Part shown: piece after piece, positions 354 to 32,504 of the stretch
How the letters are laid out: every line of letters begins with the position of its first letter
How positions within the stretch are numbered: the stretch's first letter is position 1
From: Patescibacteria group bacterium
Lineage (GTDB): Bacteria; Patescibacteriota; Patescibacteriia; UBA2591; UBA6264
Direction of reading: 5' to 3'
Assembly: GCA_016784145.1 (NCBI GenBank)
Contig: JADHVF010000002.1
Span: forward strand, 9,102 to 73,101
Length of the DNA stretch: 64,000 nucleotides
Program-made: the position numbers and the translations under genes
The notes under the pieces: model-generated
Database searches by the model: none
Told to the model about the DNA's origin: nothing
The model's input: the letters and a program-made list of their open reading frames with translations, nothing else

Positions 354-1385
354 TTATTTTTTGAACTCTTCTATGATTTTTACTGGAGATGGGTCTATTT
401 GGTTAAGAATTGATAAATAAAAACTTGTCCAATCAATTAACAAAATAGAGCATAGTAAATTGCCTAAAAGGTTATCACTAAAATCAGGAATTATTTCATA
501 TCTTATTTCTTGCTTGGTAATTATTTTTTTGAATTTCTTTAAAGATTCTTTTTTAATTGAATTAGCCCAAATTAAAAATATAATTTCATCTTTCATTCTC
601 CTTGGCTGATTACTAGTTATTGAATTATGAAAAATTTCTGGAGCATTTTCAAAAAAACAAAACATTTTGCTGTTTTCTGCTATTTGTGTCTTCATTCTTC
701 TAGCTAGGGCAGATACTTCTTCGCTTGAAATGATTACAGGTAAATGATCAAAAATACAATAGGCAAGATGTTTGGCCATATTTTTTTCAGTTGGTATTTT
801 TATTGAAAGGGATTTATTAAAAATTGTTAGTTTAGTTAATTCTTTAGTTATATTAAGGTCTAAATTATTTATTATTTTTAATTTTTTTAGAACAGATAAA
901 ATAGGCATAAACAAATAAGGCAAAGCTGTTCTAGGCAATAATTCGGGTTTTATTTTGAAAATATCAATTTTTTTTTCGCTGGCTAATTCTTTAAGATAAC
1001 CATTATGAGTTATTATAAATATATTTGTTTTTTGTTTAAAAGCTTGTTTTGCACAGGCTATTGTTTCGGCCGTGTTGCCAGAATAACTATTGATAAAAAT
1101 TAAGTCATTAGGCCCGACAGATTTAGGAATATTAAAGGAGCGATTTATTATGATTGTTTGTTTGATTTTTGATTTTAATAAGTTATTTATTAATTCACCT
1201 CCAATCCCAGAACCGCCCATTCCACATATAAAAATATTTTTAAAATTTTTCTTTTTATATGATATTTTAATTTTTTTAGACAAATTATAGGCATCCAGCC
1301 AAGTTGCAGGCATTTTAATTAAGTCATTAATCATATTTGATTTGTCTATTTGCTTTATTTTTTTTAAGTCGTCAATAATTGTCAT
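354..1385 (-). CDS. SIS-domain sugar isomerase, bifunctional phosphoglucose/phosphomannose isomerase-like
   Basis: 343 aa. The FICGMGGSGIGGELI glycine-rich SIS phosphosugar-binding motif and overall length match archaeal/CPR-type PGI/PMI. Confidence 0.6.
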   Translation of the reverse strand: MTIIDDLKKIKQIDKSNMINDLIKMPATWLDAYNLSKKIKISYKKKNFKNIFICGMGGSGIGGELINNLLKSKIKQTIIINRSFNIPKSVGPNDLIFINSYSGNTAETIACAKQAFKQKTNIFIITHNGYLKELASEKKIDIFKIKPELLPRTALPYLFMPILSVLKKLKIINNLDLNITKELTKLTIFNKSLSIKIPTEKNMAKHLAYCIFDHLPVIISSEEVSALARRMKTQIAENSKMFCFFENAPEIFHNSITSNQPRRMKDEIIFLIWANSIKKESLKKFKKIITKQEIRYEIIPDFSDNLLGNLLCSILLIDWTSFYLSILNQIDPSPVKIIEEFKK

Positions 1386-1479: not shown

Positions 1480-2196
1480 ATGAGTGGACATTCTAAGTGG
1501 CATAAAATAAAACACGCCAAAGGAGCTAGTGATGCAAAAAAAGGTGTATTGTTTACAAAATTAGGCAATGCTATTACTGTGGCAGCCAGAGAAGGAGGTG
1601 GGGACACAGAGGCTAACTTTAAGTTAAGGTTAACCATTGAAACAGCTAAAAAAGCAAATGTGCCTAATAAAAATATTGAGAGAGCTATTAAAAGAGGAAC
1701 AGGAGATACTGGCGATAAACAAATAGAAGAAGTAATTTATGAGGCCTTTGGTCCAGCCGGAGTAAAGATAATAATTCAAGCCCTAACTGACAATAGAAAC
1801 AGAACTATAAATAGTTTAAGAACAATTTTTAAAAAATACAAAGGAGGCATGGGAGAACCAAATACAGTACGATGGATGTTTGAACAAAAGGGAGTTATTA
1901 GAGTTGATAAGGATAAGATAAAAAACATGGACGAGGTTGAATTAATGGCCATTGACTTAGATGTTCAAGACATAGCTAAACAAGAAGATGAAGTTATTTT
2001 TTATACTAGTTCTGGGGATTTAGAAAAAATTAAAAAAGAATTAGAACAAAAAGCAGAAATAGGAGATGCTAGAATAGAGTTTGTGGCCAAGGACTTAATT
2101 AAAATTGATAAATCAATCCAATTAAAAATTGATTCCCTTTTAGCAGAAATAGAAGATGACCCAGACATAAGTGATTGTTACACTAATATAGAATAA
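1480..2196 (+). CDS. yebC: YebC/PmpR family DNA-binding transcriptional regulator
   Basis: The N-terminus MSGHSKWHKIKHAKGASDAKKG...NIERAIKRGTG is the highly conserved YebC signature. 238 aa. Confidence 0.9.
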   Translation: MSGHSKWHKIKHAKGASDAKKGVLFTKLGNAITVAAREGGGDTEANFKLRLTIETAKKANVPNKNIERAIKRGTGDTGDKQIEEVIYEAFGPAGVKIIIQALTDNRNRTINSLRTIFKKYKGGMGEPNTVRWMFEQKGVIRVDKDKIKNMDEVELMAIDLDVQDIAKQEDEVIFYTSSGDLEKIKKELEQKAEIGDARIEFVAKDLIKIDKSIQLKIDSLLAEIEDDPDISDCYTNIE

Positions 2197-2199
2197 TAT

Positions 2200-2679
2200 A
2201 TGATTATACTTGGAATTGACCCAGGCATAGCCACGACAGGATATGGTCTGATTAATTTTTCCGAAGACAATAAGCTTGCTTTGGTTGATTATGGAACGAT
2301 CAAGACGCCTTCTAAAAAGGAATTTCCATTAAGATTACTTGATATATATAATGAATTAGAAGGGATAATAAAAAAATACAATCCTGACAAGATAGGAATA
2401 GAAAATATATATTTTGCTAAAAATGTTAAAACAGCTATAAATGTTGGGCAAGCAAGAGGGGTGCTTATCTTGGTTTCAGCTAGAACAAAGGCAGAAATTT
2501 TAGAGATTACTCCATTACAAGTAAAGCAAGGAATTACGGGATATGGCCAAGCATCTAAACAGCAAGTTCAGAAAATGGTCAAATTGGTTCTTGGTTTGGA
2601 CAAGGTTCCTAGACCAGATGATGCAGCCGATGCTTTGGCGATTGCAATTGTCTGTTCACAGAGAAAAACGTTCAATTAA
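2200..2679 (+). CDS. ruvC: Holliday junction resolvase RuvC
   Basis: MIILGIDPGIATTGYGL (catalytic Asp at the start). 159 aa, typical RuvC length. The C-terminus carries the acidic DDAADALAIA motif. Confidence 0.9.
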   Translation: MIILGIDPGIATTGYGLINFSEDNKLALVDYGTIKTPSKKEFPLRLLDIYNELEGIIKKYNPDKIGIENIYFAKNVKTAINVGQARGVLILVSARTKAEILEITPLQVKQGITGYGQASKQQVQKMVKLVLGLDKVPRPDDAADALAIAIVCSQRKTFN

Positions 2680-2688
2680 AAGGTATGT

Positions 2689-4161
2689 ATGGAAAAGAAA
2701 TTAAATATTATTCATTTATCTTCTGAAATATCTCCGTATTCAAAAACAGGAGGCCTGGCAGATGTTACTAGGTCGTTGCCTAGATCATTAAAGCGACTAG
2801 GACATAATGTTGCAGTAATTACGCCATATTACGGCTTTATTAGAAGAAAAAAATGGAAGGTAATTAATTTAGAACAAAAAATATCAGTAAGTTTTGCTGG
2901 TATTATTTATAAATTTGGAATTAAAAAAATCATTTGTCCGGACAAATATCCGGTTTTTTTTATTTGTCAGAATAAATTATTTGAATCTGTTGGTAGTCGC
3001 AATGTGTATAACTATTCAGATAAAGCTTTAAAGTATTTACTATTTAGTTTAGCTAGCATTGAGTTAATAAAAGTATTAAAATTAAATCCAAACATTATTC
3101 ATTGTCATGACTGGCACACTGGTTTGGTCCCAAATTATTTAAAATTAAAATATAACAAGGATTTGCTTTTTAAAAATATTCCTGTCATTTTTACAATTCA
3201 TAATTTACTATATCAAGGACCTGAGGATTGGTGGAATACACCTTTAAATAAATTGGATAATGGCCAAGGAATCCCAGCAGAAGATGAGGAAGAAATAAAA
3301 CATCTTAATTTTGTAAAAAGGGGAGTTATTTATTCTGACATTATAAATACTGTCAGCATGCGCTATGCTAAAGAAATTTTAACTCCTGAATTTGGTTGTA
3401 AGTTGGAGAAAGATTTACAAGCAAGAGAAAAAGATCTTTACGGGATTATAAATGGAGTTGATTACAATATCTTTAATCCTAAGTTTGATAAAAATATTTA
3501 TGTTAATTATGGAGCTAATTCATTACAAAACAAAACAAGTAATAAATTATATTTGCAAAAAAAATATAAATTAAAAGTTGATCCAAGTATTCCCTTAATT
3601 GGCATGGCTAACAGATTAACAGAACAAAAAGGATTTAGGTTAATAGTTAAGATTTTGGATTATTTGTTAAAATCAGATATTCAGGTAGCTATTATTGGAA
3701 GCGGAGGAAGCAGATACAAGGGTATTTTTAAAAAACAAGCAGCCAAATATCCCAAAAAATTATTATTTATTACACCCTTTAAAGAAGATGTTGGTAGAAA
3801 GGTTTATGCTGCTTCTGATATTTATTTAATGCCATCAAGGTTTGAGCCCTGTGGAATATCTCAGTTAATAAGCTTAAGGTATGGGTCAATTCCAATTGTT
3901 CACGAAGTTGGTGGACTAATGGACACCATAGTTGATTATAATCCTGAGACAGGCAAGGGAAATGGTTTTGTTTTTAATTCATATACATCAAGAGATTTAT
4001 TGTTTGCCATTGCCAGAGCTGTTGAAAATTACAAGCATAAAAAAGAGTGGAAAAAACTTGTTCGCGTTGCAATGAAGGAGTCCTATTCATGGAAAATCCC
4101 CGCACAAAAATATATTGGATTATATAGGAGGGCTATAAAACAAAGACATGAATTGGGTTAA
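2689..4161 (+). CDS. glgA: Glycogen (starch) synthase, GT5 family
   Basis: Hallmark KTGGLADV motif near the N-terminus and a GT-B C-terminal half (EPCGISQL). 490 aa. Confidence 0.85.
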   Translation: MEKKLNIIHLSSEISPYSKTGGLADVTRSLPRSLKRLGHNVAVITPYYGFIRRKKWKVINLEQKISVSFAGIIYKFGIKKIICPDKYPVFFICQNKLFESVGSRNVYNYSDKALKYLLFSLASIELIKVLKLNPNIIHCHDWHTGLVPNYLKLKYNKDLLFKNIPVIFTIHNLLYQGPEDWWNTPLNKLDNGQGIPAEDEEEIKHLNFVKRGVIYSDIINTVSMRYAKEILTPEFGCKLEKDLQAREKDLYGIINGVDYNIFNPKFDKNIYVNYGANSLQNKTSNKLYLQKKYKLKVDPSIPLIGMANRLTEQKGFRLIVKILDYLLKSDIQVAIIGSGGSRYKGIFKKQAAKYPKKLLFITPFKEDVGRKVYAASDIYLMPSRFEPCGISQLISLRYGSIPIVHEVGGLMDTIVDYNPETGKGNGFVFNSYTSRDLLFAIARAVENYKHKKEWKKLVRVAMKESYSWKIPAQKYIGLYRRAIKQRHELG

Positions 4162-5236
4162 TTTATTACATATTTATCAGCCATTTTGGCAAACTAGAGA
4201 AATTTTAGATAAGGTTGTAGAACAATCATACAAAAAGATTTTGTTTGTTTTAGAAAATAATTCAAGTACAAAAGTTAATATAAATATTTGTGCTGGACTA
4301 ACAGAACAATTGATTGTTAATGGATATGATGAGATTGTGGATAGATTAAAAAAATTAGCCATTAAGGGGCAAATTGAATTTGTTGATTCCGCTAAATATC
4401 ATCCTATTTTGCCTCTTTTGCCAACCAAGGAAATTATTAGACAAATAAAACTTAATAATAGTTTTAATAAAAAATATTTTGGAAAAACATATAATCCAAC
4501 AGGTTTTTTTCTCCCAGAATTAGCTTATAGTAAAAAAACAGCTAGAATTATCAAATCCTTGGGATATAAATGGATTATATTAGATGAAATTGCTTATAAT
4601 AATAGTTTTGGAGAGGTTTGCTTTGACCAACAATATTTTTTAAGAGATTTTTTTGATAAACAACATCAACCTTTTAAAATAATTTTTAGAAACAGAGGTC
4701 TCAGTTTGTTATTTTTTCATAAATGGCTTGATTCAGTTGAGAAATTTTGGCAAGCAGTTAATCAAGACATTCGCTCAAGTGAGTTTTTGGTTACAGCTTT
4801 TGATGGAGAAAGTTTAGGGCATCATCAGGCAATTTTGATTGATGTTTGGGAAAATATTTTAAAAGATAATAGAATTAAAACTATCTTTTTTTCAGAATAT
4901 TTAAAGCAATTGAATAATAAACAGGTAAACAAAATTGTTCCAATAAAATCTAGTTGGTCGACAGAAATTGATGATATAAAAAAAGATAGACCATATCCTT
5001 TGTGGGACAACAACCAAAACAAGTTACATCAACTGCAATGGAAAATTACTTATTTGGTTTTAAATATTGTTAAAAATTCAAGAGATAATCCAAACCATAA
5101 GCAAGCTAGGGACATGTTAGATAAGGCACTGCATTCTGACCAGTATTGGTGGGCATCTGCTAACCCTTGGTGGAGTAAAAGTCCAATCAAAAAAGGATTA
5201 AATCAGTTTGAAGAAATTATTAAATTATTAATATGA
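4148..5236 (+). CDS. Glycoside hydrolase family 57-like protein (alpha-glucan branching/processing enzyme candidate)
   Basis: An N-terminal LHIYQPF motif, a variant of GH57 motif HQHQP. It also has W..LDE and FDGESLGHH acidic motifs. A paralog follows it and it sits directly after glgA. Confidence 0.55.
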   Translation: MNWVNLLHIYQPFWQTREILDKVVEQSYKKILFVLENNSSTKVNINICAGLTEQLIVNGYDEIVDRLKKLAIKGQIEFVDSAKYHPILPLLPTKEIIRQIKLNNSFNKKYFGKTYNPTGFFLPELAYSKKTARIIKSLGYKWIILDEIAYNNSFGEVCFDQQYFLRDFFDKQHQPFKIIFRNRGLSLLFFHKWLDSVEKFWQAVNQDIRSSEFLVTAFDGESLGHHQAILIDVWENILKDNRIKTIFFSEYLKQLNNKQVNKIVPIKSSWSTEIDDIKKDRPYPLWDNNQNKLHQLQWKITYLVLNIVKNSRDNPNHKQARDMLDKALHSDQYWWASANPWWSKSPIKKGLNQFEEIIKLLI

Positions 5237-7212
5237 AATGGTCATTTTTTTTACATTTTTATCAACCATATAATCAACAAAAAGATATTTTAGAAAGAGT
5301 TGTTAACGAGAGTTATAGAAAAATTTTGTTAGGGTTGGCTAGAAATCCTAGCATGAAATTAAATCTCAATATAAATGCAGGGTTAACTGAGTTATTAGCT
5401 AAAAATGGTTATAATGATATAATTGAACAAATTAAAGATTGTGCTATTAAAGGACAAATTGAATTTGTTGGTTCAGCAAAATATCACCCCTTTTTGCCTC
5501 TTTTGCCGGTTAAAGAAATTAAAAGACAAATTGACATTAACACTAAAACAAATAAAAAATATTTTGGAAAAGTTTATAATCCAGTAGGATTTTTTTCTCC
5601 AGAAATGGCTTATAATACCAAGGTTGGCAAAGCAATTAGACAAGCAGGGTTTGATTGGGTTTTATTAGAAGAATTATCTGCTTTAGAGAAGCAAAAATTC
5701 CAAAAAATATATAAAATAAAAGATGTTAAAAATCTCAAGGTTGTTTTTAGGGACAAGAGGGCAAGTAATTTGATTTTGTCAGCAATTACTAGAAATATGG
5801 AATCTTTTATTAGTGAGTTTGGTCACGAAGAAATAAATAAAAATCGCTACCTTTTAACATTAATGGATGCAGAAACTTTTGGTCATCATCGACCAGGTTT
5901 AGAGAAATTCCTTTTTGAGATTTATGAAGATAAACAAATTAGCAAGGTTTTTATTTCTAAATTAATAAAAGAATTTTCTGTAAATGAAAAAATTAAAATT
6001 AGACCTAGTACTTGGTCTGCAGAAGAGCAAGATTTTTGGCTTAAAAAAGAAAAAAAACATTCTTTTAGTTTATGGTCTGACCCCAAAAATCCAATTCATA
6101 AGCTTCAGTGGGATTTTACTTATTTTGTGATAGAATTGGTAAATAAAGCTTCCAAAAAACAGAAGCATTACAAAAAAACAAGAATGTTATTAGACAAGGC
6201 ATTGCATTCCGACCAGTATTGGTGGGCATCTGCTAGACCTTGGTGGTCTTTAGAAATGATAGAGCAAGGAGCATTTGATTTAAAAAAGGTGGTTTTATCA
6301 ATTACAGCCATCCCTAAAAACAAGCAAGCAATAGCAGAAGATTATTATAATCAGATTTTAGGGTTGGCCTTTAAATGGCAAAGACAGGGGAAAATTCGCA
6401 ATGCTTACAGAGAGGAATATAAAACATTAAAACAAAAATCTTTTAAGAAAAGAGTTTTGGCTGGTCAATTTAATTCAATGATTTTAGAATTTGAAGACGA
6501 GATGAACAAGGCAATTAAAAATAAGGAATTTGAAAAAGCGATTAAATGGAGGGATGCCATTTATAAATTAAAAGCAGATACAGACATATTTGATGTTTTA
6601 CATGTTGTTGATGATTTGGCTAATCATAGAAACTTGCCATCATTAAAAGATTATTGGGAATATGATGTTCAAGATTTTTCAAAATTCGCAAAAGAGAATT
6701 TTGTTAGTTTTAATGAGAAAAAATTTCAAACCAAACAACCAAAACAACTTTTTGATGAAATAAAATTAGCATTTTTAAAAAAAGAAGAATCTCATCCCTT
6801 GGGCTTTTTTAGAGACAAGTATAATGTTTTTCATATTTGTGAGGTTCCATCTAATTATATCGAATATTATGTTGGTACAAAAATATGGGATGCAATGAGC
6901 TTGTTAAAGTTTAAAAAACACAAAAAATATCATAGTCAGGGGCAGTGTGATTATGAATATTTTAATAATAAACTTAAAATAACAATCAATGCTCAGAGTT
7001 TATTGAATAAATTTTTAATATTATTAAAACAAAGCGATATTAGTCAGGGTAAATATTTAAAAGTAGCTGTTTTATGTGAAAAAAATCAATATAAACCAAT
7101 ATTTTTTTCAAAAAATAAACAAAATCAACTGATTGCGATTGTTCCATATAAGTATTCATCCAAGGGAGTAGGCATAAAATATAAAATATTTAATTGGGTT
7201 TCCAAAAAATAA
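5233..7212 (+). CDS. GH57-like paralog with a ~300-aa C-terminal extension containing a UVR-like motif
   Basis: N-terminal 330 aa align to the preceding ORF (LHFYQPY, LLEE, MDAETFGHH, LHSDQYWWASARPWWS). The extension contains KEFEKAIKWRDAIYKLK, resembling the UvrB/UvrC UVR motif. Confidence 0.55.
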   Translation: MKWSFFLHFYQPYNQQKDILERVVNESYRKILLGLARNPSMKLNLNINAGLTELLAKNGYNDIIEQIKDCAIKGQIEFVGSAKYHPFLPLLPVKEIKRQIDINTKTNKKYFGKVYNPVGFFSPEMAYNTKVGKAIRQAGFDWVLLEELSALEKQKFQKIYKIKDVKNLKVVFRDKRASNLILSAITRNMESFISEFGHEEINKNRYLLTLMDAETFGHHRPGLEKFLFEIYEDKQISKVFISKLIKEFSVNEKIKIRPSTWSAEEQDFWLKKEKKHSFSLWSDPKNPIHKLQWDFTYFVIELVNKASKKQKHYKKTRMLLDKALHSDQYWWASARPWWSLEMIEQGAFDLKKVVLSITAIPKNKQAIAEDYYNQILGLAFKWQRQGKIRNAYREEYKTLKQKSFKKRVLAGQFNSMILEFEDEMNKAIKNKEFEKAIKWRDAIYKLKADTDIFDVLHVVDDLANHRNLPSLKDYWEYDVQDFSKFAKENFVSFNEKKFQTKQPKQLFDEIKLAFLKKEESHPLGFFRDKYNVFHICEVPSNYIEYYVGTKIWDAMSLLKFKKHKKYHSQGQCDYEYFNNKLKITINAQSLLNKFLILLKQSDISQGKYLKVAVLCEKNQYKPIFFSKNKQNQLIAIVPYKYSSKGVGIKYKIFNWVSKK

Positions 7213-8234
7213 TTATGATTTTTATTAAATTAAAAAATAAAATAAATATAAAGAAAACGATTAATAAAGAATATATGTTTTCTTTTTTTAAAGAAAATAA
7301 AAATAAATTTTTAAATAAGCAAGAAAAAATTTTAAAAATAAAAATTTATTTAAATAGAAATTTTATGGGCAAGTTTAGAAATATAAGCTTGGTTTATAAA
7401 ATAACAACTAATAAGCGAAATATAAGAATTAGAGCTAGAGCACATAATAATAAAGATATTCCTTTTAGGGATTATAAATCAATAAAATGGTTAAGGGATA
7501 ATAATATAAATAATGTTCCTATTCCCTTGTATTATGACAAATCATTAAATATATTTTTTTATAAAGAATCTCCAGGTCAATCTTTTGAACGATTATTTAA
7601 TGATAAAAATCCTGAAATTTATTTAGATTTTTCTCTTAAAATAGCTGATTTTTTAAGGAAAATGCATAAAATTTCTAGAAAACCAGATTTTTTGCCTATA
7701 AAGACAAGAAAACAGGATATAAAAGAAAGGAGACATTGGTTTTTTTTAACAAAAAAATGCTGTCCAAAAGTTTATCCATTTTTTAGAAAGACATTAAAAG
7801 GCCTCTGGACAGTTAATCAAAAGAATTTAAAGTTTTTTGATAATAATGAGTTTAGATTTGTTCACGGAGATGTTCATTGGGGCAATGTGATTAAAAACAA
7901 AGATGATTTTAGTGTTATTGATTTTTGTTGGGGTTCATGGGCCCACCCATTAGAAGATGTTGCTTGTTTTTTAGCTCAAAATGATTCAATGTTTCGTTAT
8001 TATATGAGTGACTTCTTGGGTTGGCGAAAGAAAATAAGAGATGTTTTTATAAAAAAATATTTTAAAAATAATTTAACCCATCAAGAGGAATTTTTGTTGA
8101 CTTATTTTGAGATTCAAAAAATATTAGAGATGGCCGCCATTCATTGCTTTGTAGAAGGAAATAAGGACAATAAAATAAATGGAGCTAATACATTGATAAC
8201 CAGGGCTAGTAAAAAATTAAAACAAATATTATAA
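7194..8234 (+). CDS. Aminoglycoside-phosphotransferase-fold (APH/CotS-like) kinase; possible sugar (maltose-type) kinase
   Basis: FVHGDVHWGNVI (catalytic loop HGDxxxxN) and VIDFCWGSWAHPLEDVA (DFxxG-like) are typical of the phosphotransferase enzyme family. It lies inside the glucan gene cluster. Confidence 0.55.
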   Translation: MGFQKIIMIFIKLKNKINIKKTINKEYMFSFFKENKNKFLNKQEKILKIKIYLNRNFMGKFRNISLVYKITTNKRNIRIRARAHNNKDIPFRDYKSIKWLRDNNINNVPIPLYYDKSLNIFFYKESPGQSFERLFNDKNPEIYLDFSLKIADFLRKMHKISRKPDFLPIKTRKQDIKERRHWFFLTKKCCPKVYPFFRKTLKGLWTVNQKNLKFFDNNEFRFVHGDVHWGNVIKNKDDFSVIDFCWGSWAHPLEDVACFLAQNDSMFRYYMSDFLGWRKKIRDVFIKKYFKNNLTHQEEFLLTYFEIQKILEMAAIHCFVEGNKDNKINGANTLITRASKKLKQIL

Positions 8235-8242
8235 TACATTAT

Positions 8243-9112
8243 ATGATTGATTTACACTTACATTCATATTATTCAGATGGAGTTTTTTCTCCAAAAGAAA
8301 TTGCAATTAAGGCCAAGCAAAATGGCCTTTCTTTTGTTTGTCTGACAGACCATAACAGCATTGACGGGCTTGAAGAGTTTGCAGTGGCTTGCCATGCAAA
8401 TAAGTTAAAATTCATTTCAGGAATAGAAATTTATAGTCATTACAAAGGCAAGCACATACATTTTTTAGGGTATAATTTTGATGTTCATAATAAGAAAATA
8501 AAATCAACTTTTAAAAACTTACAAAAAAAACATATTATTCAAATAAAAAAAACAATTAAAATTTTAAAAAACAATGGTTGGAAAATAAAAAACACAGATA
8601 TATTAGATAATAAATCTGCTTATATTGGTTCTGTTCATCTGGCTGAAGCGCTCAAAAATAATCGAGATAATTGGGAAAGGATAAAACAGGATTTTGGCTG
8701 GACAAAAGGCATGATTATTCCCATTACTGAGATTATAAATAAATATTTATTTCAAGAATACGGCAGAATTTATAAAGAAGCTGAAATACCAGTTAGGCAG
8801 GCAATCAAGTTAATTAAAACTGCTGGCGGAACAATTGTTTTGGCACACCCAGGGCAACATTTTTTTTGGCATGAAGATGATATTGTTTTAGAGTTAAAAA
8901 GCATGGGACTTGATGGCATAGAGGCAATAAGCTCACATCATTCGTGGGCTGAAATGGAGCATTGGCAAAAATTTGCCAAGCAAAACAAATTAATTATTAC
9001 AATTGGCAGTGATTTTCACGGACATGTTCCAAAAGAATGGGGGTTTGTTGTTAATAGTCCATGGGATTATTTTAAAATAACTAATCATCCAGATTTTACT
9101 AAAATATTTTAA
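8243..9112 (+). CDS. PHP-domain (polymerase/histidinol-phosphatase) metal-dependent phosphoesterase
   Basis: MIDLHLHSYYSDG...CLTDHNSIDG has the classic PHP HxH...DH motifs. The C-terminal AHPG and GSDFHG motifs are also present. Confidence 0.75.
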   Translation: MIDLHLHSYYSDGVFSPKEIAIKAKQNGLSFVCLTDHNSIDGLEEFAVACHANKLKFISGIEIYSHYKGKHIHFLGYNFDVHNKKIKSTFKNLQKKHIIQIKKTIKILKNNGWKIKNTDILDNKSAYIGSVHLAEALKNNRDNWERIKQDFGWTKGMIIPITEIINKYLFQEYGRIYKEAEIPVRQAIKLIKTAGGTIVLAHPGQHFFWHEDDIVLELKSMGLDGIEAISSHHSWAEMEHWQKFAKQNKLIITIGSDFHGHVPKEWGFVVNSPWDYFKITNHPDFTKIF

Positions 9113-9164
9113 GTGTTTTAGTTATAAAAGAGCCCTCTTTTTTGCTTAGGGCCCCTTTTTTTTT

Positions 9165-9383
9165 ACTTAGAGGCCTTGCCCCTAAGTAGAGTCACTTAGA
9201 GGCCTTGCCCCTAAGTAGAGTGCTAATCAGTAATCAGTAATTATTTACTTAGAGGCCTTGCCCCTAAGTAGAGTGCTAATCAGTAATCAGTAATTAATAT
9301 CTACTTAGAGGCCTTACCCCTAAGTAGAGTTACTTAGAGGCCTTGCCCCTAAGTAGAGTGCTAATCAGTAATCAGTAATTAAT
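9165..9383. repeat. Array of 5 copies of the 28-nt GC-rich hairpin element ACTTAGAGGCCTTGCCCCTAAGTAGAGT, three followed by a (CAGTAAT)n spacer
   Basis: The direct repeats are read from the sequence. Each copy is an imperfect inverted repeat (TACTTAGAGG / CCCCTAAGTA). It sits between convergent genes and overlaps the stop of the minus-strand CDS. Confidence 0.85.
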
Positions 9384-29466: not shown

Positions 29467-29895
29467 ATGCAATTTTTAGTTCCACAATTTATTGATGTTG
29501 AACCAAAAATCATTGGGCCAATTTCGCCTCGTCAGTTCGTTGTTTTCATTGTTACTTTATTATTATGTGTGTTAGCATATAAGTTAGCTGATTTTGCTTT
29601 ATTCACAATTGAAGCAATTATTTTTGTGGCAGTAGGGGGGTCATTTATGTTTCTTAAGGTTAATGGCCAACCATTGCATTATTTTTTACTTAATATTGGG
29701 AATAGTTTCAAAAAGCCAAACTTAAGGGTGTGGAAAAAACAAACCAAGATGCCAGTTGAAATAAAAGTAAAAGAAAAGAAAAAAGACAAAGGACCAATTG
29801 TTGTCAGAAAGTCACTTCCTTCAACTCGGCTTTCACAAATTTCATTAATGGTTGATACAGGAGGCAAATACAATGAAGAGGATTTTGAAGAATAA
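29467..29895 (+). CDS. PrgI/VirB3-like small membrane protein (type IV secretion component)
   Basis: 142 aa. MQFLVPQFIDVEPKIIGPISPRQFVVF… is followed by two hydrophobic helices, typical of the PrgI family. It sits immediately upstream of the VirB4-family ATPase, as VirB3 does relative to VirB4. Confidence 0.5.
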   Translation: MQFLVPQFIDVEPKIIGPISPRQFVVFIVTLLLCVLAYKLADFALFTIEAIIFVAVGGSFMFLKVNGQPLHYFLLNIGNSFKKPNLRVWKKQTKMPVEIKVKEKKKDKGPIVVRKSLPSTRLSQISLMVDTGGKYNEEDFEE

Positions 29896-30587: not shown

Positions 30588-32504
30588 ATGGTTTTTGACC
30601 CATCAATTATTAAAACAAAAGAAGAATTAGCAGAGCAACCAAAACAGTTGTCTAAAAAAGAACAGAAGCAAGTTGATATTAAAAAAGAGATAGAATTAGA
30701 TGATGTCATAAAGACAGAGCAAGCATATCGCAAAGGACTTGTCTCTGTTCGTGATTTGATTGCTCCTTCTGCTTTGAGAGCAACTCCAGCCTATCTACAG
30801 TTGGGAAACAAATATCTCAGAACACTTTTTGTAGTTGCCTTCCCAAGATATATTACAGTTGGTTGGTTTTCTCCTTTAATTGGCTTTGATTCTTCTTTGG
30901 ATGTATCAATGTTTTTTTATCCGGTTGAAACAAAAGTGATTTTAAAACAATTACAAAAAAAAGTTGGTAATATAGAAGCAGAGCTTGGAGCAGAATACGA
31001 GAAAGGTATGCCAAGAGACCCTTTAAAGGAAACAGCTTTGAGAGATATTGAGAATTTAAGAAATCAATTAACTACTGGTACAGAGCATTTTTTTCAATTT
31101 TCTTTATATGTAACTATTTATGCTGACACGGAAAAAGAGTTGGATGAGACAACAGAAAAAGTAGAGAACATTTTTGCATCAAAACTAGTTTATACTAGAA
31201 GAGCTTTTTATCAAGCAGAACAAGGATTTGATTCTACCTTGCCTTTAGCAAATGACAAAATAATGGTTTCAATAAATATTAATACCTCTCCTTGCGCTTC
31301 TAGTTTCCCTTTTATTTCAGCTGATTTAACGTCAGACAATGGCATTCTCTACGGAATTAATAGACATAACAATAGTTTGATTCTTTTTGATAGATTTTCA
31401 ATGCCTAATGCTAATTTTATGGTTTTTGCTACCTCTGGCTCGGGTAAAAGTTATTTTGCTAAATTAGAAGTTTTGCGGTCATTAATGATGGGCACGGATG
31501 TTATTATTATTGACCCTGAAAAAGAGTACAAGCATTTATCTGACGCTGTAGGGGGAACGTTTATTAACATCTCGCTTGCTTCTGAAGCCAAGATTAATCC
31601 ATTTGATTTGCCCAGGTCAAGTTCAAAAGATGTAAAAACAAGCGATCTAATTAGAAGTGGAGTTATTTCAGTAAAAGGATTATTAAAGCTAATGATTGGA
31701 CAGCCAATAGGAAAGAAAGATAATGCTTTTACGCCAAAAGAGGACTCCTTGCTTGATAGTGCACTTTTAGAAACTTATGCTAAAAAAGACATTATACCAG
31801 GATGTGATTTAACAAAAGTTCAAATGCCAACCTTAAGCGATTTTCAGCAAATTTTAGAAGGAATGGAGGGAGTAGATGATTTAGTTGAAAGATTAAAAAA
31901 ATATACAGCCGGAACATTTTCAGGATTTTTAAATCGTCCTACTAATGTTGAAATGGATAACCAGTTTATAGCTTTTTCAGTTAGAGATCTTGAGGACGAA
32001 TTAAGACCAATGGCTATTTATAGTATTGTGAATTATATTTGGAATACTGTGCGAGCAAAATTAAAGAAAAGAATTTTATTGGTTGACGAGGCTTGGTGGT
32101 TAATGCAAAATGAAGAGTCTGCAAAATTTATATTTGCTCTTGTTAAACGTTGCCGAAAATATTATATGGGAGTAACAACAATTACACAGGATGTAAATGA
32201 CTTTCTTAACTCTCCTTATGGCAGGGCAATTGTCACTAACTCAGCCATGCAATTATTATTAAAACAGTCGCCAGCTTCGGTTGACAGGGTATCAAAGATA
32301 TTTATGCTGACAGAAGGAGAAAAATTTTTATTATTAGAATGTGGGCTGGGTGAAGGCATATTCTTTGCTGGACCCAAACACGCGGCCATAAAAGTAGTTG
32401 CTTCTTATTCAGAAGACCAATTAATAACATCAGACCCCAGTCAGTTATTAGAAATTGAAGAATCTAAAAAAGAGTTTGCTAAAGAATCTAAAAAAGAAGA
32501 ATAA
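30588..32504 (+). CDS. VirB4/TraC/TrbE-family type IV secretion ATPase
   Basis: Walker A is FATSGSGKSYFAKLE. Walker B is RILLVDEAWWLM. A downstream TTITQ motif is present. 638 aa; if the preceding ORF is included, the size matches VirB4. Confidence 0.8.
   Translation: MVFDPSIIKTKEELAEQPKQLSKKEQKQVDIKKEIELDDVIKTEQAYRKGLVSVRDLIAPSALRATPAYLQLGNKYLRTLFVVAFPRYITVGWFSPLIGFDSSLDVSMFFYPVETKVILKQLQKKVGNIEAELGAEYEKGMPRDPLKETALRDIENLRNQLTTGTEHFFQFSLYVTIYADTEKELDETTEKVENIFASKLVYTRRAFYQAEQGFDSTLPLANDKIMVSININTSPCASSFPFISADLTSDNGILYGINRHNNSLILFDRFSMPNANFMVFATSGSGKSYFAKLEVLRSLMMGTDVIIIDPEKEYKHLSDAVGGTFINISLASEAKINPFDLPRSSSKDVKTSDLIRSGVISVKGLLKLMIGQPIGKKDNAFTPKEDSLLDSALLETYAKKDIIPGCDLTKVQMPTLSDFQQILEGMEGVDDLVERLKKYTAGTFSGFLNRPTNVEMDNQFIAFSVRDLEDELRPMAIYSIVNYIWNTVRAKLKKRILLVDEAWWLMQNEESAKFIFALVKRCRKYYMGVTTITQDVNDFLNSPYGRAIVTNSAMQLLLKQSPASVDRVSKIFMLTEGEKFLLLECGLGEGIFFAGPKHAAIKVVASYSEDQLITSDPSQLLEIEESKKEFAKESKKEE

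What the first reader, a model, noticed from the sequence alone, without database searches (positions are those of the whole stretch)
2689..9112. Alpha-glucan cluster: glgA, two tandem divergent GH57-like paralogs, an APH-fold kinase and a PHP phosphatase
Five overlapping or abutting genes follow glgA. The two GH57-like proteins share start and end motifs (LH[IF]YQP…, LHSDQYWWASA[NR]PWWS). They have Tyr in place of the second His of the canonical HQHQP motif. The second paralog has a 300-aa extension containing a UVR-like helical motif (KEFEKAIKWRDAIYKLK) not normally found in glycoside hydrolases. An APH/CotS-fold kinase is in the position a maltokinase occupies in GlgE-type pathways. A PHP phosphoesterase ends the operon. 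Together this suggests a non-classical glycogen/alpha-glucan or maltose-1-phosphate-type route in an organism with otherwise minimal metabolism.
Basis: partly seen in the sequence, partly recalled or inferred. Interest (0 to 1): 0.55.

Follow-up and report, generated by a model that had tools for sequence, protein, structure and literature searches.

The report
Patescibacterial glycogen operon with kinase–phosphatase pair
This is a glycogen-type sugar-storage operon that is conserved across hundreds of ultra-small "candidate phyla radiation" bacteria; it pairs a normal glycogen synthase with an uncharacterised branch of GH57 glucan enzymes and, in about half of the lineages, an uncharacterised kinase plus phosphatase that seem to work on the sugar polymer or its breakdown products.

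Summary
Window 2689-9112 holds five tightly packed plus-strand genes: GT5 glycogen synthase GlgA, two GH57 paralogs (43% identical, both with the catalytic Glu/Asp), an APH-fold kinase and a TrpH-type PHP phosphoesterase. The longer GH57 carries a true UVR hairpin and a lineage-specific C-terminal beta domain.

The arrangement is not a local oddity. GH57-UVR relatives occur in at least 563 species-level Patescibacteria genomes, almost always directly after GlgA. The kinase follows GH57-UVR in 33 of 69 loci. The PHP follows only when the kinase is present (20/33 against 0/36). Single-ORF fusions GH57-UVR–kinase and kinase–PHP exist.

The maltokinase / maltose-1-phosphate reading is not supported. 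The kinase has no specific similarity to maltokinase, and no GlgE or TreS was found in any locus. The GH57s are neither canonical GH57 branching enzymes nor 4-alpha-glucanotransferases. They form their own H-x-Y-Q-P clade.

The PHP clade has lost the basic residues that bind the nucleotide 5'-phosphate in its solved relatives, which argues for a non-nucleotide substrate.

Best reading: a GlgA-based alpha-glucan operon with an accessory sugar- or glucan-directed kinase/phosphatase module whose exact substrate is unknown. This is a new variant of a known kind.

The parts
2689..4161 (+). glgA: GT5 glycogen/starch synthase of the ADP-glucose type (490 aa; NCBI MBL7053819)
   Evidence: TIGR02095 scores 496.8 bits against a cut-off of 328.45; PF08323 9e-67; PF00534 2e-18. 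The KTGGL motif is at residue 19 and EPCG at 386. A GlgA gene lies directly upstream of the GH57 genes in about 66 of 73 related loci.
4148..5236 (+). Short GH57 paralog (362 aa; MBL7053820, publicly annotated as 'hypothetical protein'), consisting of the catalytic barrel and helical bundle only
   Evidence: PF03065 5.6e-34. It is 43% identical to the long paralog over 364 aa, E = 4e-99. CSRs: HIYQP(8), GQIEFV(74), FLPELA(121; nucleophile Glu124), AFDGESLGHH(217; acid/base Asp219), LHSDQYWWA(328). Glu and Asp are kept in 45 of 45 short paralogs of related loci.
5233..7212 (+). Long GH57 paralog, 'GH57-UVR' (659 aa; MBL7053821, publicly annotated as 'UvrB/UvrC motif-containing protein'). Layout: GH57 barrel and helical bundle (aa 1 to about 400), UVR hairpin, linker helix, C-terminal beta domain
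   Evidence: PF03065 9.5e-31. The AF2 model has pLDDT 87.4. The top 25 Foldseek PDB hits are all GH57 enzymes; 1k1x scores 2e-17. Nucleophile Glu124 (nt 5602-5604) and acid/base Asp212 (nt 5866-5868) are invariant in 87 of 87 homologs. At least 563 relatives were found among GTDB species representatives.
6478..6576 (+). UVR (UvrB/UvrC-type) helical-hairpin motif inside GH57-UVR (aa 416-448; helices 410-429 and 433-447 in the model)
   Evidence: PF02151 4.4e-6 on the whole protein and 7.2e-7 (29.2 bits) on the isolated segment. E434, A436, W439, R440, D441, A442 and K445 are invariant in 36 homologs. It is the only FE.A...RD motif among the window's ORFs.
6790..7209 (+). Lineage-specific C-terminal beta-rich domain of GH57-UVR (aa about 520-659), function unknown
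   Evidence: pLDDT is above 90 with 9 beta strands. There is no Pfam hit. Only 5 representatives among 1.84 billion proteins match, and the significant ones that could be checked are the tails of GH57-UVR proteins. The domain is present in 17 of 86 loci and absent from the roughly 500-aa class.
7215..8234 (+). APH/ELK-fold kinase (339 aa; MBL7053822, annotated 'aminoglycoside phosphotransferase family protein')
   Evidence: PF01636 1.4e-10. Catalytic loop H217-G-D219-V-H221-W-G-N224, Mg-binding D236 (VIDF) and K53 are present. The AF2 model has pLDDT 93.6. Foldseek places it among small-molecule kinases (Rv3168, MTR kinase, choline/ethanolamine kinases, APH(9)) at TM 0.5-0.68. Its position immediately after GH57-UVR is conserved. 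It is fused to GH57-UVR in P0120/L001.
8243..9112 (+). TrpH/Cv1693-type PHP trinuclear-metal phosphoesterase (289 aa; MBL7053823)
   Evidence: PF02811 1e-16; NF041577 scores 135 bits, below its cut-off of 400. PDB 2yb1 matches at 5e-20 and 7ug9 at 4e-12. Metal ligands H5, H7, D12, H37, E62, H73, H202, D257 and H259 are present. H97, Q100 and S130 replace the 5'-phosphate-binding Arg99, Arg102 and Arg134 of Cv1693. It is found only downstream of the kinase and is fused to it in L042.
9300..9328 (.). 13-bp-stem hairpin between the convergent PHP and LysM-CHAP genes; likely end of the transcription unit
   Evidence: Terminator-like scan. It lies in the only sizeable intergenic gap (9113-9378) after the tightly packed run of genes from 1480 to 9112.
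354..1385 (-). Phosphoglucose isomerase (SIS / bact-PGI_C), divergent neighbour. It is context and may be functionally linked to the island
   Evidence: PF10432 5.9e-31. Homologs occupy the same position in 17 related loci and in L108.

Best explanation
The region is the Patescibacteria (CPR) version of a glycogen/alpha-glucan storage operon.

Shown:
- GlgA is a GT5 ADP-glucose-type synthase.
- Both GH57 paralogs have the GH57 fold and an intact Glu/Asp dyad.
- They belong to a CPR-specific GH57 clade with the fingerprint H-x-Y-Q-P / GQIE[FL][TV] / F-x-P-E-[ML]-A / MD[GA]ETFGHH / SDQ[YF]WWA.
- GH57-UVR is the near-obligatory neighbour of GlgA.
- The kinase and the PHP form an accessory, mutually dependent pair inserted after GH57-UVR.

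Inferred:
- GlgA builds alpha-1,4 chains.
- GH57-UVR is its chain-transferring partner (branching or disproportionation). It stands in for the GlgB that was not seen in the window or in any related locus examined.
- The short GH57 trims or remodels chains.
- The UVR hairpin mediates dimerisation or docking of partner proteins.
- The kinase phosphorylates a hydroxyl of a glucose-based substrate handled by GH57-UVR, and the PHP removes a sugar-bound (not nucleotide-bound) phosphate.

My preferred specific version, at about 0.3, is reversible phosphorylation of the glucan or malto-oligosaccharide itself, which would help mobilise a poorly branched polymer. That would make it a functional analogue of plant GWD/SEX4.

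Second choice, at about 0.2, is a phosphatase plus anomeric-kinase shunt, Glc-6-P to glucose to Glc-1-P, feeding the GalT-like nucleotidyltransferase and GlgA.

The confidence below is for the general statement: a glycogen operon with a sugar- or glucan-directed kinase/phosphatase module.
For: Family assignments rest.

Conservation:
- About 2000 protein homologs of GH57-UVR were found. Every hit that carries an organism name is Patescibacteria, apart from one MAG labelled Aenigmarchaeota.
- At least 563 GTDB species representatives carry a relative.
- GlgA lies directly upstream, or upstream of intervening GH57 paralogs, in about 66 of 73 loci.
- A second GlgA, a GalT-like HIT transferase, a ROK kinase, GH15 and PGI recur in the same island.

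Kinase-PHP coupling:
- The kinase follows GH57-UVR in 33 of 69 loci.
- The PHP is present in 20 of those 33 and in 0 of 36 loci without the kinase (Fisher p = 5e-9). The pattern holds across 9 or more clades separated at 70% identity.
- All 21 kinase-anchored metagenome loci agree.
- Fusion ORFs exist: GH57-UVR-APH (826 aa, P0120/L001) and APH-PHP (664 aa, L042).

Kinase: the catalytic motifs are intact. The nearest relatives are small-molecule kinases, including enzymes that phosphorylate sugar hydroxyls: APH(2'') at 4e-8 and MTR kinase at 4e-5.

PHP:
- All metal ligands are kept.
- At the position of Cv1693 R134 / RNase AM R141, 0 of 62 clade members have a basic residue, against 45 of 58 generic TrpH-like proteins.
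- R99 and R102 are also mostly lost.
- A distant clade member sits in the same operon (L108), whereas a generic one sits beside a NUDIX gene.

Operon structure: the genes overlap or abut, and a hairpin follows the PHP gene.
Against: - No biochemical data exist for any member, and the specificity of this GH57 clade is unresolved. Foldseek hits cover transferases, branching enzymes and amylopullulanases about equally.
- The housekeeping genes yebC and ruvC are just as tightly packed and just as syntenic (23 loci), so gene order alone does not prove a functional link.
- Each fusion was seen in a single MAG and could be a sequencing frameshift.
- Half of the lineages manage without the kinase, so it is not essential to the pathway.
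- A kinase subclade has Glu in place of the catalytic Asp.
- Neither the kinase nor the PHP has a recognisable carbohydrate-binding module.
- The rest of the genome could not be inspected for GlgB, GlgC, GlgP or PGM. None lies in the 64-kb window.
Confidence: 0.62

Rival explanations
1. This is the first reader's model: a maltose-1-phosphate route. A GH57 releases maltose, the APH-fold kinase acts as a maltokinase, and the second GH57 uses maltose-1-phosphate as donor. That would be a GlgE analogue built on a GH57 scaffold. The PHP would detoxify excess maltose-1-phosphate.
For: - The GH57-UVR-kinase fusion has the same layout as the known TreS-maltokinase fusions (PMC11046441).
- Known sugar kinases of this fold are often anomeric kinases; MTR kinase is the second-best profile hit.
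- GH57 enzymes are retaining transglycosidases like GH13 GlgE (PMC6037648).
- The short paralog has a weak PSMA-like (maltose-forming amylase) N-domain hit at 7e-5.
Against: - TIGR02457 scores 13.4 bits against a cut-off of 375.
- PDB maltokinase matches at E = 0.56 over 34 residues only and is absent from the top profile and structure hits.
- No GlgE or TreS appears in any locus.
- A classical ADP-glucose-type GlgA is always present and would make a maltose-1-phosphate polymerase redundant.
- A kinase fused to a phosphatase acting on the same bond would be a futile cycle.
Confidence: 0.1
2. This is a phosphoglucomutase/GlgC bypass. The PHP would dephosphorylate glucose-6-phosphate. The kinase would phosphorylate glucose at C1. 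Glucose-1-phosphate would then be converted by the GalT-like HIT transferase to ADP/UDP-glucose for GlgA. The logic matches the MupP-AmgK-MurU peptidoglycan-recycling shunt (from my own knowledge).
For: - A kinase-PHP fusion makes sense for two consecutive, non-futile steps.
- A GalT-like transferase and a second GlgA follow the PHP in many loci.
- PGI and a ROK glucokinase are in the island.
- No GlgC or PGM was seen in the window or in any locus.
- MTR kinase, an anomeric kinase, is among the nearest relatives.
Against: - The GalT-like gene occurs equally with and without the kinase: 7/24, 3/12 and 9/19.
- The kinase often occurs without the PHP (13 of 33).
- This model does not explain the fusion of the kinase to GH57-UVR.
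- The presence or absence of PGM elsewhere in these genomes could not be checked.
- Known relatives of this PHP type act on secondary-alcohol (3') phosphates, not on a primary C6 phosphate.
Confidence: 0.18
3. This is a regulatory protein-phosphorylation switch. The APH-fold protein would be a protein kinase that phosphorylates GlgA or the GH57 enzymes, possibly docking on the UVR hairpin. The PHP would be the matching protein phosphatase, comparable to the CpsD kinase / CpsB PHP-phosphatase pair that controls capsule polysaccharide synthesis (from my own knowledge).
For: - NCBIfam's best kinase hit is the YihE/SrkA Ser/Thr protein kinase model, at 1.2e-5.
- UVR hairpins are protein-protein interaction modules; the motif also hits the kinase activator McsA weakly.
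- The PHP has lost its nucleotide-binding arginines.
- The strict PHP-needs-kinase pattern is typical of writer/eraser pairs.
Against: - Structural and profile neighbours are overwhelmingly small-molecule kinases. Protein kinases match only at E of about 0.1-0.3 over the catalytic loop.
- The PHP is of the TrpH type with an insertion domain, not the CpsB/YwqE type.
- GH57-UVR and GlgA occur in half of the lineages with no kinase at all.
- The kinase occurs without the PHP in 13 loci.
Confidence: 0.1
4. The kinase and the PHP are unrelated to glucan metabolism. They would be housekeeping genes, for example a pAp phosphatase / RNase AM and a small-molecule or antibiotic kinase, that merely share a compact, syntenic stretch with the glycogen genes, as yebC, ruvC and leuS do.
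For: - yebC-ruvC upstream and LysM-CHAP/leuS downstream are conserved in the same loci without any obvious functional link.
- CPR genomes are compact, so tight spacing is the rule.
- The PHP is clearly homologous to Cv1693 and RNase AM.
Against: - Two independent fusion proteins exist.
- The pair sits inside the island, between GH57-UVR and the second GlgA, in many loci.
- The association persists down to about 20-35% kinase identity.
- The PHP clade has lost the nucleotide 5'-phosphate pocket, while generic TrpH homologs sit elsewhere.
- The PHP is never found in this position without the kinase.
Confidence: 0.1

Closest known systems
Classical bacterial GlgC-GlgA-GlgB glycogen pathway and glg operons
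   Same: It has a GT5 ADP-glucose-type glycogen synthase (TIGR02095 above cut-off). That gene is clustered with retaining alpha-glucan-active glycoside hydrolases/transferases and with hexose-phosphate enzymes (PGI; ROK in relatives).
   Different: No GH13 GlgB, GlgC, GlgP or GlgX was seen in the window or in any locus. The glucan-processing enzymes are GH57. Many relatives have two GlgA genes and a GalT-like HIT transferase where GlgC would be expected. A kinase and a PHP phosphoesterase are embedded in the operon.
GH57 enzymes of known specificity: T. litoralis 4-alpha-glucanotransferase (1K1W), GH57 glycogen branching enzymes (Thermus, Thermococcus, Pyrococcus), amylopullulanases
   Same: It shares the (beta/alpha)7 barrel plus helical bundle, five conserved sequence regions, and a Glu nucleophile and Asp acid/base with a TLGT-like spacing of 88 residues.
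   Different: - Identity is only 13-19%.
- CSR-1 is H-x-Y-Q-P.
- Fingerprint position 23 is Thr/Ser, where 4-alpha-glucanotransferases have Lys and branching enzymes have Leu.
- CSR-5 ends in WW (PMC6037648).
- There is no DUF1957 domain, flexible loop or beta5-beta6 insertion of true branching enzymes (PMC9291813).
- There is no beta-sandwich C-domain of the TLGT type.
- Instead it has a UVR hairpin, with or without a private beta domain.
TreS-maltokinase (Pep2/Mak) fusion and the GlgE maltose-1-phosphate pathway
   Same: A glucan or disaccharide-active glycoside hydrolase-family enzyme is adjacent to, and occasionally fused with, an ELK/APH-fold kinase (PMC11046441).
   Different: There is no specific sequence or structural relationship to maltokinase. 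No GlgE or TreS is present. A phosphatase partner is present.
Plant/algal reversible glucan phosphorylation (GWD/PWD dikinases with SEX4/LSF2 phosphatases) and animal laforin
   Same: This is a possible functional analogy only: a kinase and a phosphatase co-inherited with glucan-degrading enzymes. In relatives the pair co-occurs with extra GH57 copies, GH15 and a ROK kinase. One locus carries two kinase domains in tandem.
   Different: There is no homology. The kinase is APH-fold, not a PPDK-like dikinase. The phosphatase is a PHP metalloenzyme, not a dual-specificity phosphatase. No CBM20, CBM45 or CBM48 is present. Whether bacterial glycogen is phosphorylated is still treated as open speculation in the one recent paper I read on glucan phosphate (PMC13011383).
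Cv1693 3',5'-nucleotide bisphosphate phosphatase / E. coli RNase AM (YciV/TrpH, COG0613 PHP proteins)
   Same: It has the same fold, the same insertion-domain architecture and the same nine metal ligands. Profile E-values are 1e-41 to 1e-50.
   Different: It is below both NCBIfam equivalog cut-offs (135 against 400 bits). The three arginines that bury the nucleotide 5'-phosphate are replaced (H97, Q100, S130), and position 130 is never basic in the 62-member clade. The genomic context is glucan genes rather than nucleotide or RNA genes.

Membership tests
GT5 glycogen/starch synthase (GlgA, ADP-glucose type) | Match to the curated family model above its cut-off, over the full length | tested here: met
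   TIGR02095 scores 496.8 bits against a cut-off of 328.45 and covers residues 6-481 of 490. The equivalog-level models fall below their cut-offs (487 against 603).
GT5 glycogen/starch synthase (GlgA, ADP-glucose type) | N-terminal K-x-G-G-L nucleotide-sugar motif and the C-terminal E-P-C-G region | tested here: met
   KTGGL is at residue 19 and EPCG at residue 386.
GT5 glycogen/starch synthase (GlgA, ADP-glucose type) | Use of ADP-glucose as donor | not testable with these tools
   This needs an enzyme assay. No GlgC was found nearby; a GalT-like transferase is present in relatives.
Glycoside hydrolase family 57 | Pfam PF03065 above the gathering score | tested here: met
   The two paralogs score 118.2 and 107.6 bits against a cut-off of 21.2.
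Glycoside hydrolase family 57 | Five conserved sequence regions, with the Glu nucleophile in CSR-3 and the Asp proton donor in CSR-4 | tested here: met
   The residues are Glu124/Asp219 in the short paralog and Glu124/Asp212 in the long one. Glu and Asp are kept in 132 of 132 related ORFs. The Glu aligns with TLGT Glu123.
Glycoside hydrolase family 57 | (beta/alpha)7 barrel followed by a helical bundle | tested here: met
   The AF2 model has pLDDT 87. The top 25 Foldseek PDB hits are all GH57 structures, with E from 2e-17 to 2e-9. This was tested on the long paralog only.
GH57 glycogen branching enzyme subfamily | Match to branching-enzyme equivalog models and presence of the DUF1957 C-terminal domain | tested here: not met
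   NF041133 scores 33 bits against a cut-off of 1000 and NF041566 scores 28 against 920, both covering only residues 62-130. There is no DUF1957 hit in Pfam.
GH57 glycogen branching enzyme subfamily | Insertion between CSR-3 and CSR-4 that carries the beta5-beta6 strands and the flexible loop (PMC9291813) | tested here: not met
   [quoted passage not shown] That leaves no room for the insertion. The GBE residue numbers were read from the paper.
GH57 4-alpha-glucanotransferase (TLGT type) | Fingerprint residue Lys at position 23 of the CSR logo, and the C-terminal beta-sandwich domain | tested here: not met
   Position 23 is Thr (long) or Ser (short). The Foldseek alignment to 1k1x covers about 400 columns, roughly the length of the catalytic region. 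The C-terminal domain has no detectable relatives outside this clade.
Maltokinase (Mak/Pep2, EC 2.7.1.175) | Specific sequence or structure similarity to maltokinases | tested here: not met
   TIGR02457 scores 13.4 bits against a cut-off of 375. PDB 4u94 matches at E = 0.56 over 34 residues. Maltokinase is not among the top 60 profile hits or the top 50 Foldseek hits.
Maltokinase (Mak/Pep2, EC 2.7.1.175) | Genomic partnership with TreS and/or GlgE | tested here: not met
   No GH13-type gene was seen in the window or within about 10 kb in 100+ related loci.
APH / eukaryotic-like kinase fold phosphotransferases | Pfam PF01636 above cut-off, catalytic loop H-x-D-x-H-x-x-N, Mg-binding Asp, and a bilobal fold | tested here: met
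   PF01636 scores 41.8 bits against a cut-off of 23.2. H217, D219, H221, N224 and D236 are invariant in 32 orthologs. The AF2 model has pLDDT 93.6, and 244 PDB matches have E below 1e-3; the 50 listed are all kinases of this fold.
TrpH/YciV/Cv1693 PHP phosphoesterases (pAp phosphatase / RNase AM) | PHP fold with an insertion domain and the trinuclear metal ligand set | tested here: met
   Profile E-values are 8e-50 to 1e-41 against 9etk, 2yb1, 7ug9 and 3e0f. H5, H7, D12, H37, E62, H73, H202, D257 and H259 are present.
TrpH/YciV/Cv1693 PHP phosphoesterases (pAp phosphatase / RNase AM) | Arginine pocket for the nucleotide 5'-phosphate (RNase AM R107/R110/R141; Cv1693 R99/R102/R134), and equivalog score | tested here: not met
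   The window protein has H97, Q100 and S130. At position 130 the clade has 0 of 62 basic residues, against 45 of 58 in generic homologs. NF041577 scores 135 against 400 and NF047791 scores 115 against 375.
UVR (UvrB/UvrC) motif | Pfam PF02151 above cut-off and a helix-turn-helix hairpin | tested here: met
   It scores 26.7 and 29.2 bits against a cut-off of 21.5. The model shows helices 410-429 and 433-447. The core residues are invariant.

The most novel reading that the evidence does not exclude
The APH-fold kinase and the TrpH-derived PHP would be a bacterial glucan kinase / glucan phosphatase pair. They would reversibly phosphorylate the storage alpha-glucan (or its malto-oligosaccharide chains) made by GlgA and the GH57 enzymes. 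This would be an independent invention of the starch-type phosphorylation cycle (GWD/SEX4, laforin) in ultra-small bacteria that lack a canonical branching enzyme. The GH57-UVR protein would serve as the glucan-binding platform to which the kinase is sometimes fused.
Probability: 0.25. Interest if true: 0.8.

Novelty: new variant of a known kind. Interest (0 to 1): 0.55.

Why it matters
**Scale.** Patescibacteria make up a large share of bacterial diversity and have very small metabolic repertoires. This operon is kept in hundreds of species-level lineages, which marks storage-glucan metabolism as important to them.

**Annotation gap.** Two of the five proteins are publicly named 'hypothetical protein' and 'UvrB/UvrC motif-containing protein'. 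The GH57 content of these genomes is therefore under-annotated by name in public records.

**GH57 enzymology.** The GH57 clade defined here (H-x-Y-Q-P, intact dyad, UVR hairpin) fits none of the described GH57 specificities. It may be the missing branching or transfer activity of organisms in which no GlgB was seen.

**The kinase-PHP pair.** It gives a concrete, cloneable test of whether bacteria phosphorylate storage glucans or use an ATP-driven shunt to glucose-1-phosphate. Either result would add a new reaction to prokaryotic alpha-glucan metabolism. The 2024 Chem Rev review of that field does not mention CPR bacteria at all.

Tried and rejected
- **Maltokinase identity.** I tested it with NCBIfam, PDB sequence search, PDB profile search and Foldseek. 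It is rejected as a family assignment.
- **GH57 specificity.** I tried the best PDB and NCBIfam hits and Foldseek. Transferases, branching enzymes and amylopullulanases score about alike, so specificity is unresolved. Canonical GBE and TLGT membership are rejected on domain content and fingerprint residues.
- **C-terminal beta domain.** Pfam gave nothing. An exhaustive phmmer search of 1.84 billion representatives found only 5 proteins; the ones that could be checked are GH57-UVR proteins. No functional clue came out of this.
- **Promoter scan.** The count equals the shuffle expectation in this 30% GC DNA and is uninformative. Only the hairpin after the PHP gene is notable.
- **Other glycogen genes in the window.** I searched for glgB, glgC, glgP, GalT-like, ROK, GH15 or a second glgA. 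None was found among the ORFs scanned; only PGI is present. The rest of the 222.7-kb contig and the genome could not be read.
- **GalT-like correlation.** I cross-tabulated the GalT-like gene against kinase presence to test the bypass model. There is no correlation.
- **Literature.** Searches for GH57 plus UVR, CPR glycogen clusters and bacterial glucan phosphorylation found only generic statements.
- **PHP as ordinary pAp phosphatase / RNase AM.** I judge this unlikely because of the lost arginine pocket and the genomic context.
- **Fusions as artefacts.** I considered this and cannot exclude it, because each fusion comes from one MAG.

Full report
**What is there.** The window is low-GC (about 30%) DNA from a Patescibacteria MAG. 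The five proteins are identical to NCBI MBL7053819-MBL7053823 on a 222.7-kb contig. Between 1480 and 9112 seven plus-strand genes are packed with overlaps or gaps of 10 nt or less:
- yebC (1480-2196) and ruvC (2200-2679)
- glgA (2689-4161)
- a 362-aa GH57 (4148-5236)
- a 659-aa GH57 (5233-7212)
- an APH-fold kinase (ATG at 7215, ends 8234)
- a PHP phosphoesterase (8243-9112)

A 13-bp-stem hairpin at 9300-9328 separates the run from a convergent LysM-CHAP gene. A phosphoglucose isomerase gene lies divergently upstream at 354-1385. Four genes, not five, follow glgA. The kinase start is 7215. 'LDE' is not catalytic. The extension of the long paralog is a UVR helical region plus a separate beta domain.

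**The GH57 pair.** The paralogs are 43% identical over 364 residues. Both align with the T. litoralis 4-alpha-glucanotransferase so that Glu124 matches its nucleophile. The acid/base Asp lies in FDGE (short) or MDAE (long). In my alignment of 132 related GH57 ORFs (45 short, 87 long) both catalytic residues are invariant, and CSR-1 is always H-x-Y-Q-P apart from one Phe. An AlphaFold model of the long protein (pLDDT 87) is matched in the PDB by GH57 enzymes of every known specificity at similar scores and 13-19% identity. The fold and the family are settled. The specificity is not.

Against the published fingerprints (PMC6037648), position 23 is Thr/Ser and CSR-5 ends in WW, a combination that fits no single described group. 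The proteins lack DUF1957 and the insertion between CSR-3 and CSR-4 that carries the flexible loop and beta5-beta6 strands of true GH57 branching enzymes (PMC9291813). The Glu-Asp spacing is 88-95 residues. They also lack the beta-sandwich C-domain of the TLGT type. I therefore do not file them as GH57 branching enzymes or 4-alpha-glucanotransferases. They form a separate, catalytically complete GH57 clade.

The UVR motif is genuine: it is above the Pfam cut-off, forms a two-helix hairpin in the model, and has an invariant core. The C-terminal beta domain (aa about 520-659) has no Pfam match. Only a handful of proteins among 1.84 billion representatives match it, and the ones that could be checked are GH57-UVR proteins.

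**How widespread it is.**
- A protein search found about 2000 homologs of the long GH57. Every hit that carries an organism name is Patescibacteria, apart from one MAG labelled Aenigmarchaeota. They fall into a roughly 660-aa class and a roughly 500-aa class that lacks the C-terminal domain.
I examined 80 loci from WWE3, CPR3, Falkow-, Terry-, Nomura-, Yanofsky-, Ames- and Taylorbacteria, Paceibacterota and others.
- Using my own ORF calling and jackhmmer/HMM labelling, a GlgA gene lies directly upstream of GH57-UVR, or upstream of one or two extra GH57 paralogs, in about 66 of 73 loci with enough sequence. A second GlgA lies downstream in most.
- Other recurrent members of the island are a GalT-like HIT transferase (23 loci), a ROK sugar kinase (11), a GH15 protein (15), bact-PGI (17) and a cupin PGI (8).

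This is a conserved CPR glycogen-metabolism island, not a peculiarity of this genome.

**The kinase and the PHP belong to it.**
- Of 69 loci with at least 2.2 kb downstream of GH57-UVR, 33 have the APH-fold gene next or fused.
- 20 of those 33 have the PHP gene right after it, and none of the 36 loci without the kinase has the PHP (Fisher p = 5e-9).
- The three states are spread over many clades: 44 clades at 70% GH57 identity, of which 9 are kinase+PHP only, 10 kinase only and 24 neither.
- When the search is anchored on the kinase instead, all 21 metagenome loci show GH57-UVR upstream and the PHP downstream wherever the contig allows.
- Two fusion ORFs tie the parts together: GH57-UVR-APH (826 aa, P0120, in an otherwise identical operon) and APH-PHP (664 aa, L042; Pfam APH 85-263, PHP 380-488).
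- One locus has a double kinase where the PHP usually sits (L075).
- A PHP only 37% identical to the window's sits in the same operon in a Kerfeldbacteria-like genome. The gene before it matches my kinase HMM at 5e-41.

There is a caveat. yebC-ruvC and leuS are just as syntenic, so gene order alone is weak evidence. The fusions and the PHP-requires-kinase rule carry the argument, and each fusion rests on a single MAG.

**What kind of kinase.**
- The catalytic loop H217-x-D219-x-H221-x-x-N224 and the Mg-binding D236 are invariant in 32 orthologs.
- The AlphaFold model is confident, with pLDDT 93.6.
- Its structural neighbours are small-molecule kinases of the APH/choline-kinase/MTR-kinase group, at TM 0.5-0.68 and 11-16% identity.
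- A profile of the family finds APH(2'')-IIa (4e-8) and methylthioribose kinase (4e-5, 5e-4) first. Protein kinases appear only at E of about 0.1-0.3.
- Maltokinase matches at E = 0.56 with the single sequence, over 34 residues of the universal catalytic loop. It scores 13.4 bits against TIGR02457, whose cut-off is 375.

The maltokinase assignment therefore fails its membership test. A sugar-hydroxyl kinase remains plausible by analogy, because aminoglycoside kinases and MTR kinase phosphorylate sugar rings. A subclade of the kinases in related loci carries Glu in place of the catalytic Asp yet keeps the PHP partner.

**What kind of PHP.** It is a TrpH/YciV/Cv1693-type enzyme with the insertion domain and all nine metal ligands. 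In RNase AM and Cv1693 the nucleotide 5'-phosphate is buried by three arginines, R107/R110/R141 and R99/R102/R134 respectively (PMC9410882). The profile alignments place H97, Q100 and S130 of the window protein at those positions. I compared the 62 sequences of the operon-associated clade with 58 generic homologs:
- Position 130 is basic in 0 of 62 clade members against 45 of 58 generic ones.
- Position 97 is Arg in 17 of 62 against 46 of 58.
- Position 100 is Arg in 15 of 62 against 32 of 58.

A generic homolog examined sits next to a NUDIX gene, not next to glucan genes. I infer that the operon's PHP no longer recognises 5'-phosphorylated nucleotides and has been recruited for another phosphoester, most simply a sugar phosphate.

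**How it most likely works.**
- Shown: the family and fold of all five proteins, intact active sites, the conserved GlgA-GH57-UVR pairing, and the dependence of the PHP on the kinase.
- Inferred: GlgA elongates alpha-1,4 chains. GH57-UVR is its chain-transfer partner (branching or disproportionation) in organisms where no GlgB was seen in any locus examined. The short GH57 trims or remodels. The kinase and the PHP act on a glucose-based phosphate ester.
- Preferred specific model (about 0.3): reversible phosphorylation of the glucan or malto-oligosaccharide. It explains the fusion of the kinase to a glucan-binding enzyme, the writer/eraser co-inheritance, the double-kinase variant, and the co-occurrence of the pair with extra GH57 copies, GH15 and a ROK kinase. 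It also fits the chemistry of the nearest relatives, which are sugar-ring OH kinases and a secondary-alcohol phosphomonoesterase.
- Next (about 0.2): a Glc-6-P to glucose to Glc-1-P shunt that feeds the GalT-like transferase.
- The maltose-1-phosphate route, a protein-phosphorylation switch, and 'unrelated housekeeping neighbours' each get about 0.1.

**Comparison with what is known, and novelty.** Every component belongs to a known superfamily, and a GlgA-plus-GH57 neighbourhood is known from thermophiles. Three things are new:
1. A CPR-wide GH57 clade with its own fingerprint and a UVR hairpin. One member here is publicly annotated 'hypothetical' and the other 'UvrB/UvrC motif-containing'.
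2. An APH-fold kinase and a re-specialised TrpH-type PHP embedded in, and occasionally fused to, the glycogen genes.
3. No GlgB, GlgC or GlgP was seen within about 10 kb of the operon in any locus examined.

I found no paper describing any of this. The 2024 Chem Rev review of prokaryotic alpha-glucan metabolism does not mention CPR bacteria. CPR papers say only that 'genes for starch or glycogen metabolism' are present. I rate it a new variant of a known kind, of moderate interest. It would rise clearly if the kinase/PHP pair proves to act on the polymer.

**Limits.** No whole genome could be inspected, so absence of GlgB, GlgC, GlgP, PGM and GlgE is established only for the 64-kb window and for about 10 kb either side of the operon in relatives. 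ORF calls and neighbour labels in the loci are my own. Divergent kinases may be under-counted, because some were found only after iterating. Substrate assignments are inferences from homology and context.

Noticed in passing
window 14710-36219: There is a giant 3247-aa ORF with a CBM_4_9 domain. It is followed by a 1196-aa ORF with no Pfam match, a PrgI-like protein (29467-29895), a VirB4/TraG-like ATPase (30588-32504) and a T4SS-pilin-like protein (33517-34920). This is a type-IV-secretion-like island next to a huge surface protein, as is often seen in CPR episymbionts.
   Followed up: partly
window 41315-43906: An 863-aa protein combines a Sulfatase (LTA-synthase-like) domain with a C-terminal glycerophosphodiester phosphodiesterase (GDPD) domain.
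   Followed up: no
window 9300-9328: A perfect-looking 13-bp-stem hairpin lies between the convergent PHP and LysM-CHAP genes. It could serve as a bidirectional terminator.
   Followed up: partly
L004 9479-10429, L027, L059, L064 12627-13616, L072, L078, L080, L108 6008-6994: A subclade of the operon's kinase has H/Q-x-E-x-Y in place of the H-x-D-x-H-x-x-N catalytic loop (Asp to Glu). It keeps the Mg-binding Asp (IDW) and, in most of these loci, the PHP partner. It may be an altered-mechanism kinase or a pseudokinase.
   Followed up: partly
L075 12601-14625: A single 674-aa ORF carries two kinase domains, APH-like and choline-kinase-like, at the position where kinase plus PHP normally sit.
   Followed up: partly
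L004 12828-13775; L108 9364-10356; 23 loci in all: A GalT-like HIT-family transferase (PF01087/DUF4931_N/DUF4921) follows the second GlgA. It may stand in for the ADP-glucose pyrophosphorylase that was not seen in these loci. It is not present in the 64-kb window.
   Followed up: partly
L007, L008, L010, L022, L089, L095, L098: Some relatives carry three tandem GH57 genes (two short plus GH57-UVR) instead of two. This shows repeated duplication within the clade.
   Followed up: no
window 4148-7212 (public records MBL7053820, MBL7053821): Public annotation calls the short GH57 'hypothetical protein' and the long one 'UvrB/UvrC motif-containing protein'. By name, the GH57 identity of this widespread clade is missed in public records.
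   Followed up: yes
L008, L010, L022, L039, L042 and many 'Saccharibacteria'-labelled loci: Several record titles label these MAGs 'uncultured Gammaproteobacteria' or 'Candidatus Saccharibacteria', although their operon and neighbours are those of the other Patescibacteria loci. The record-level taxonomy is probably wrong.
   Followed up: no
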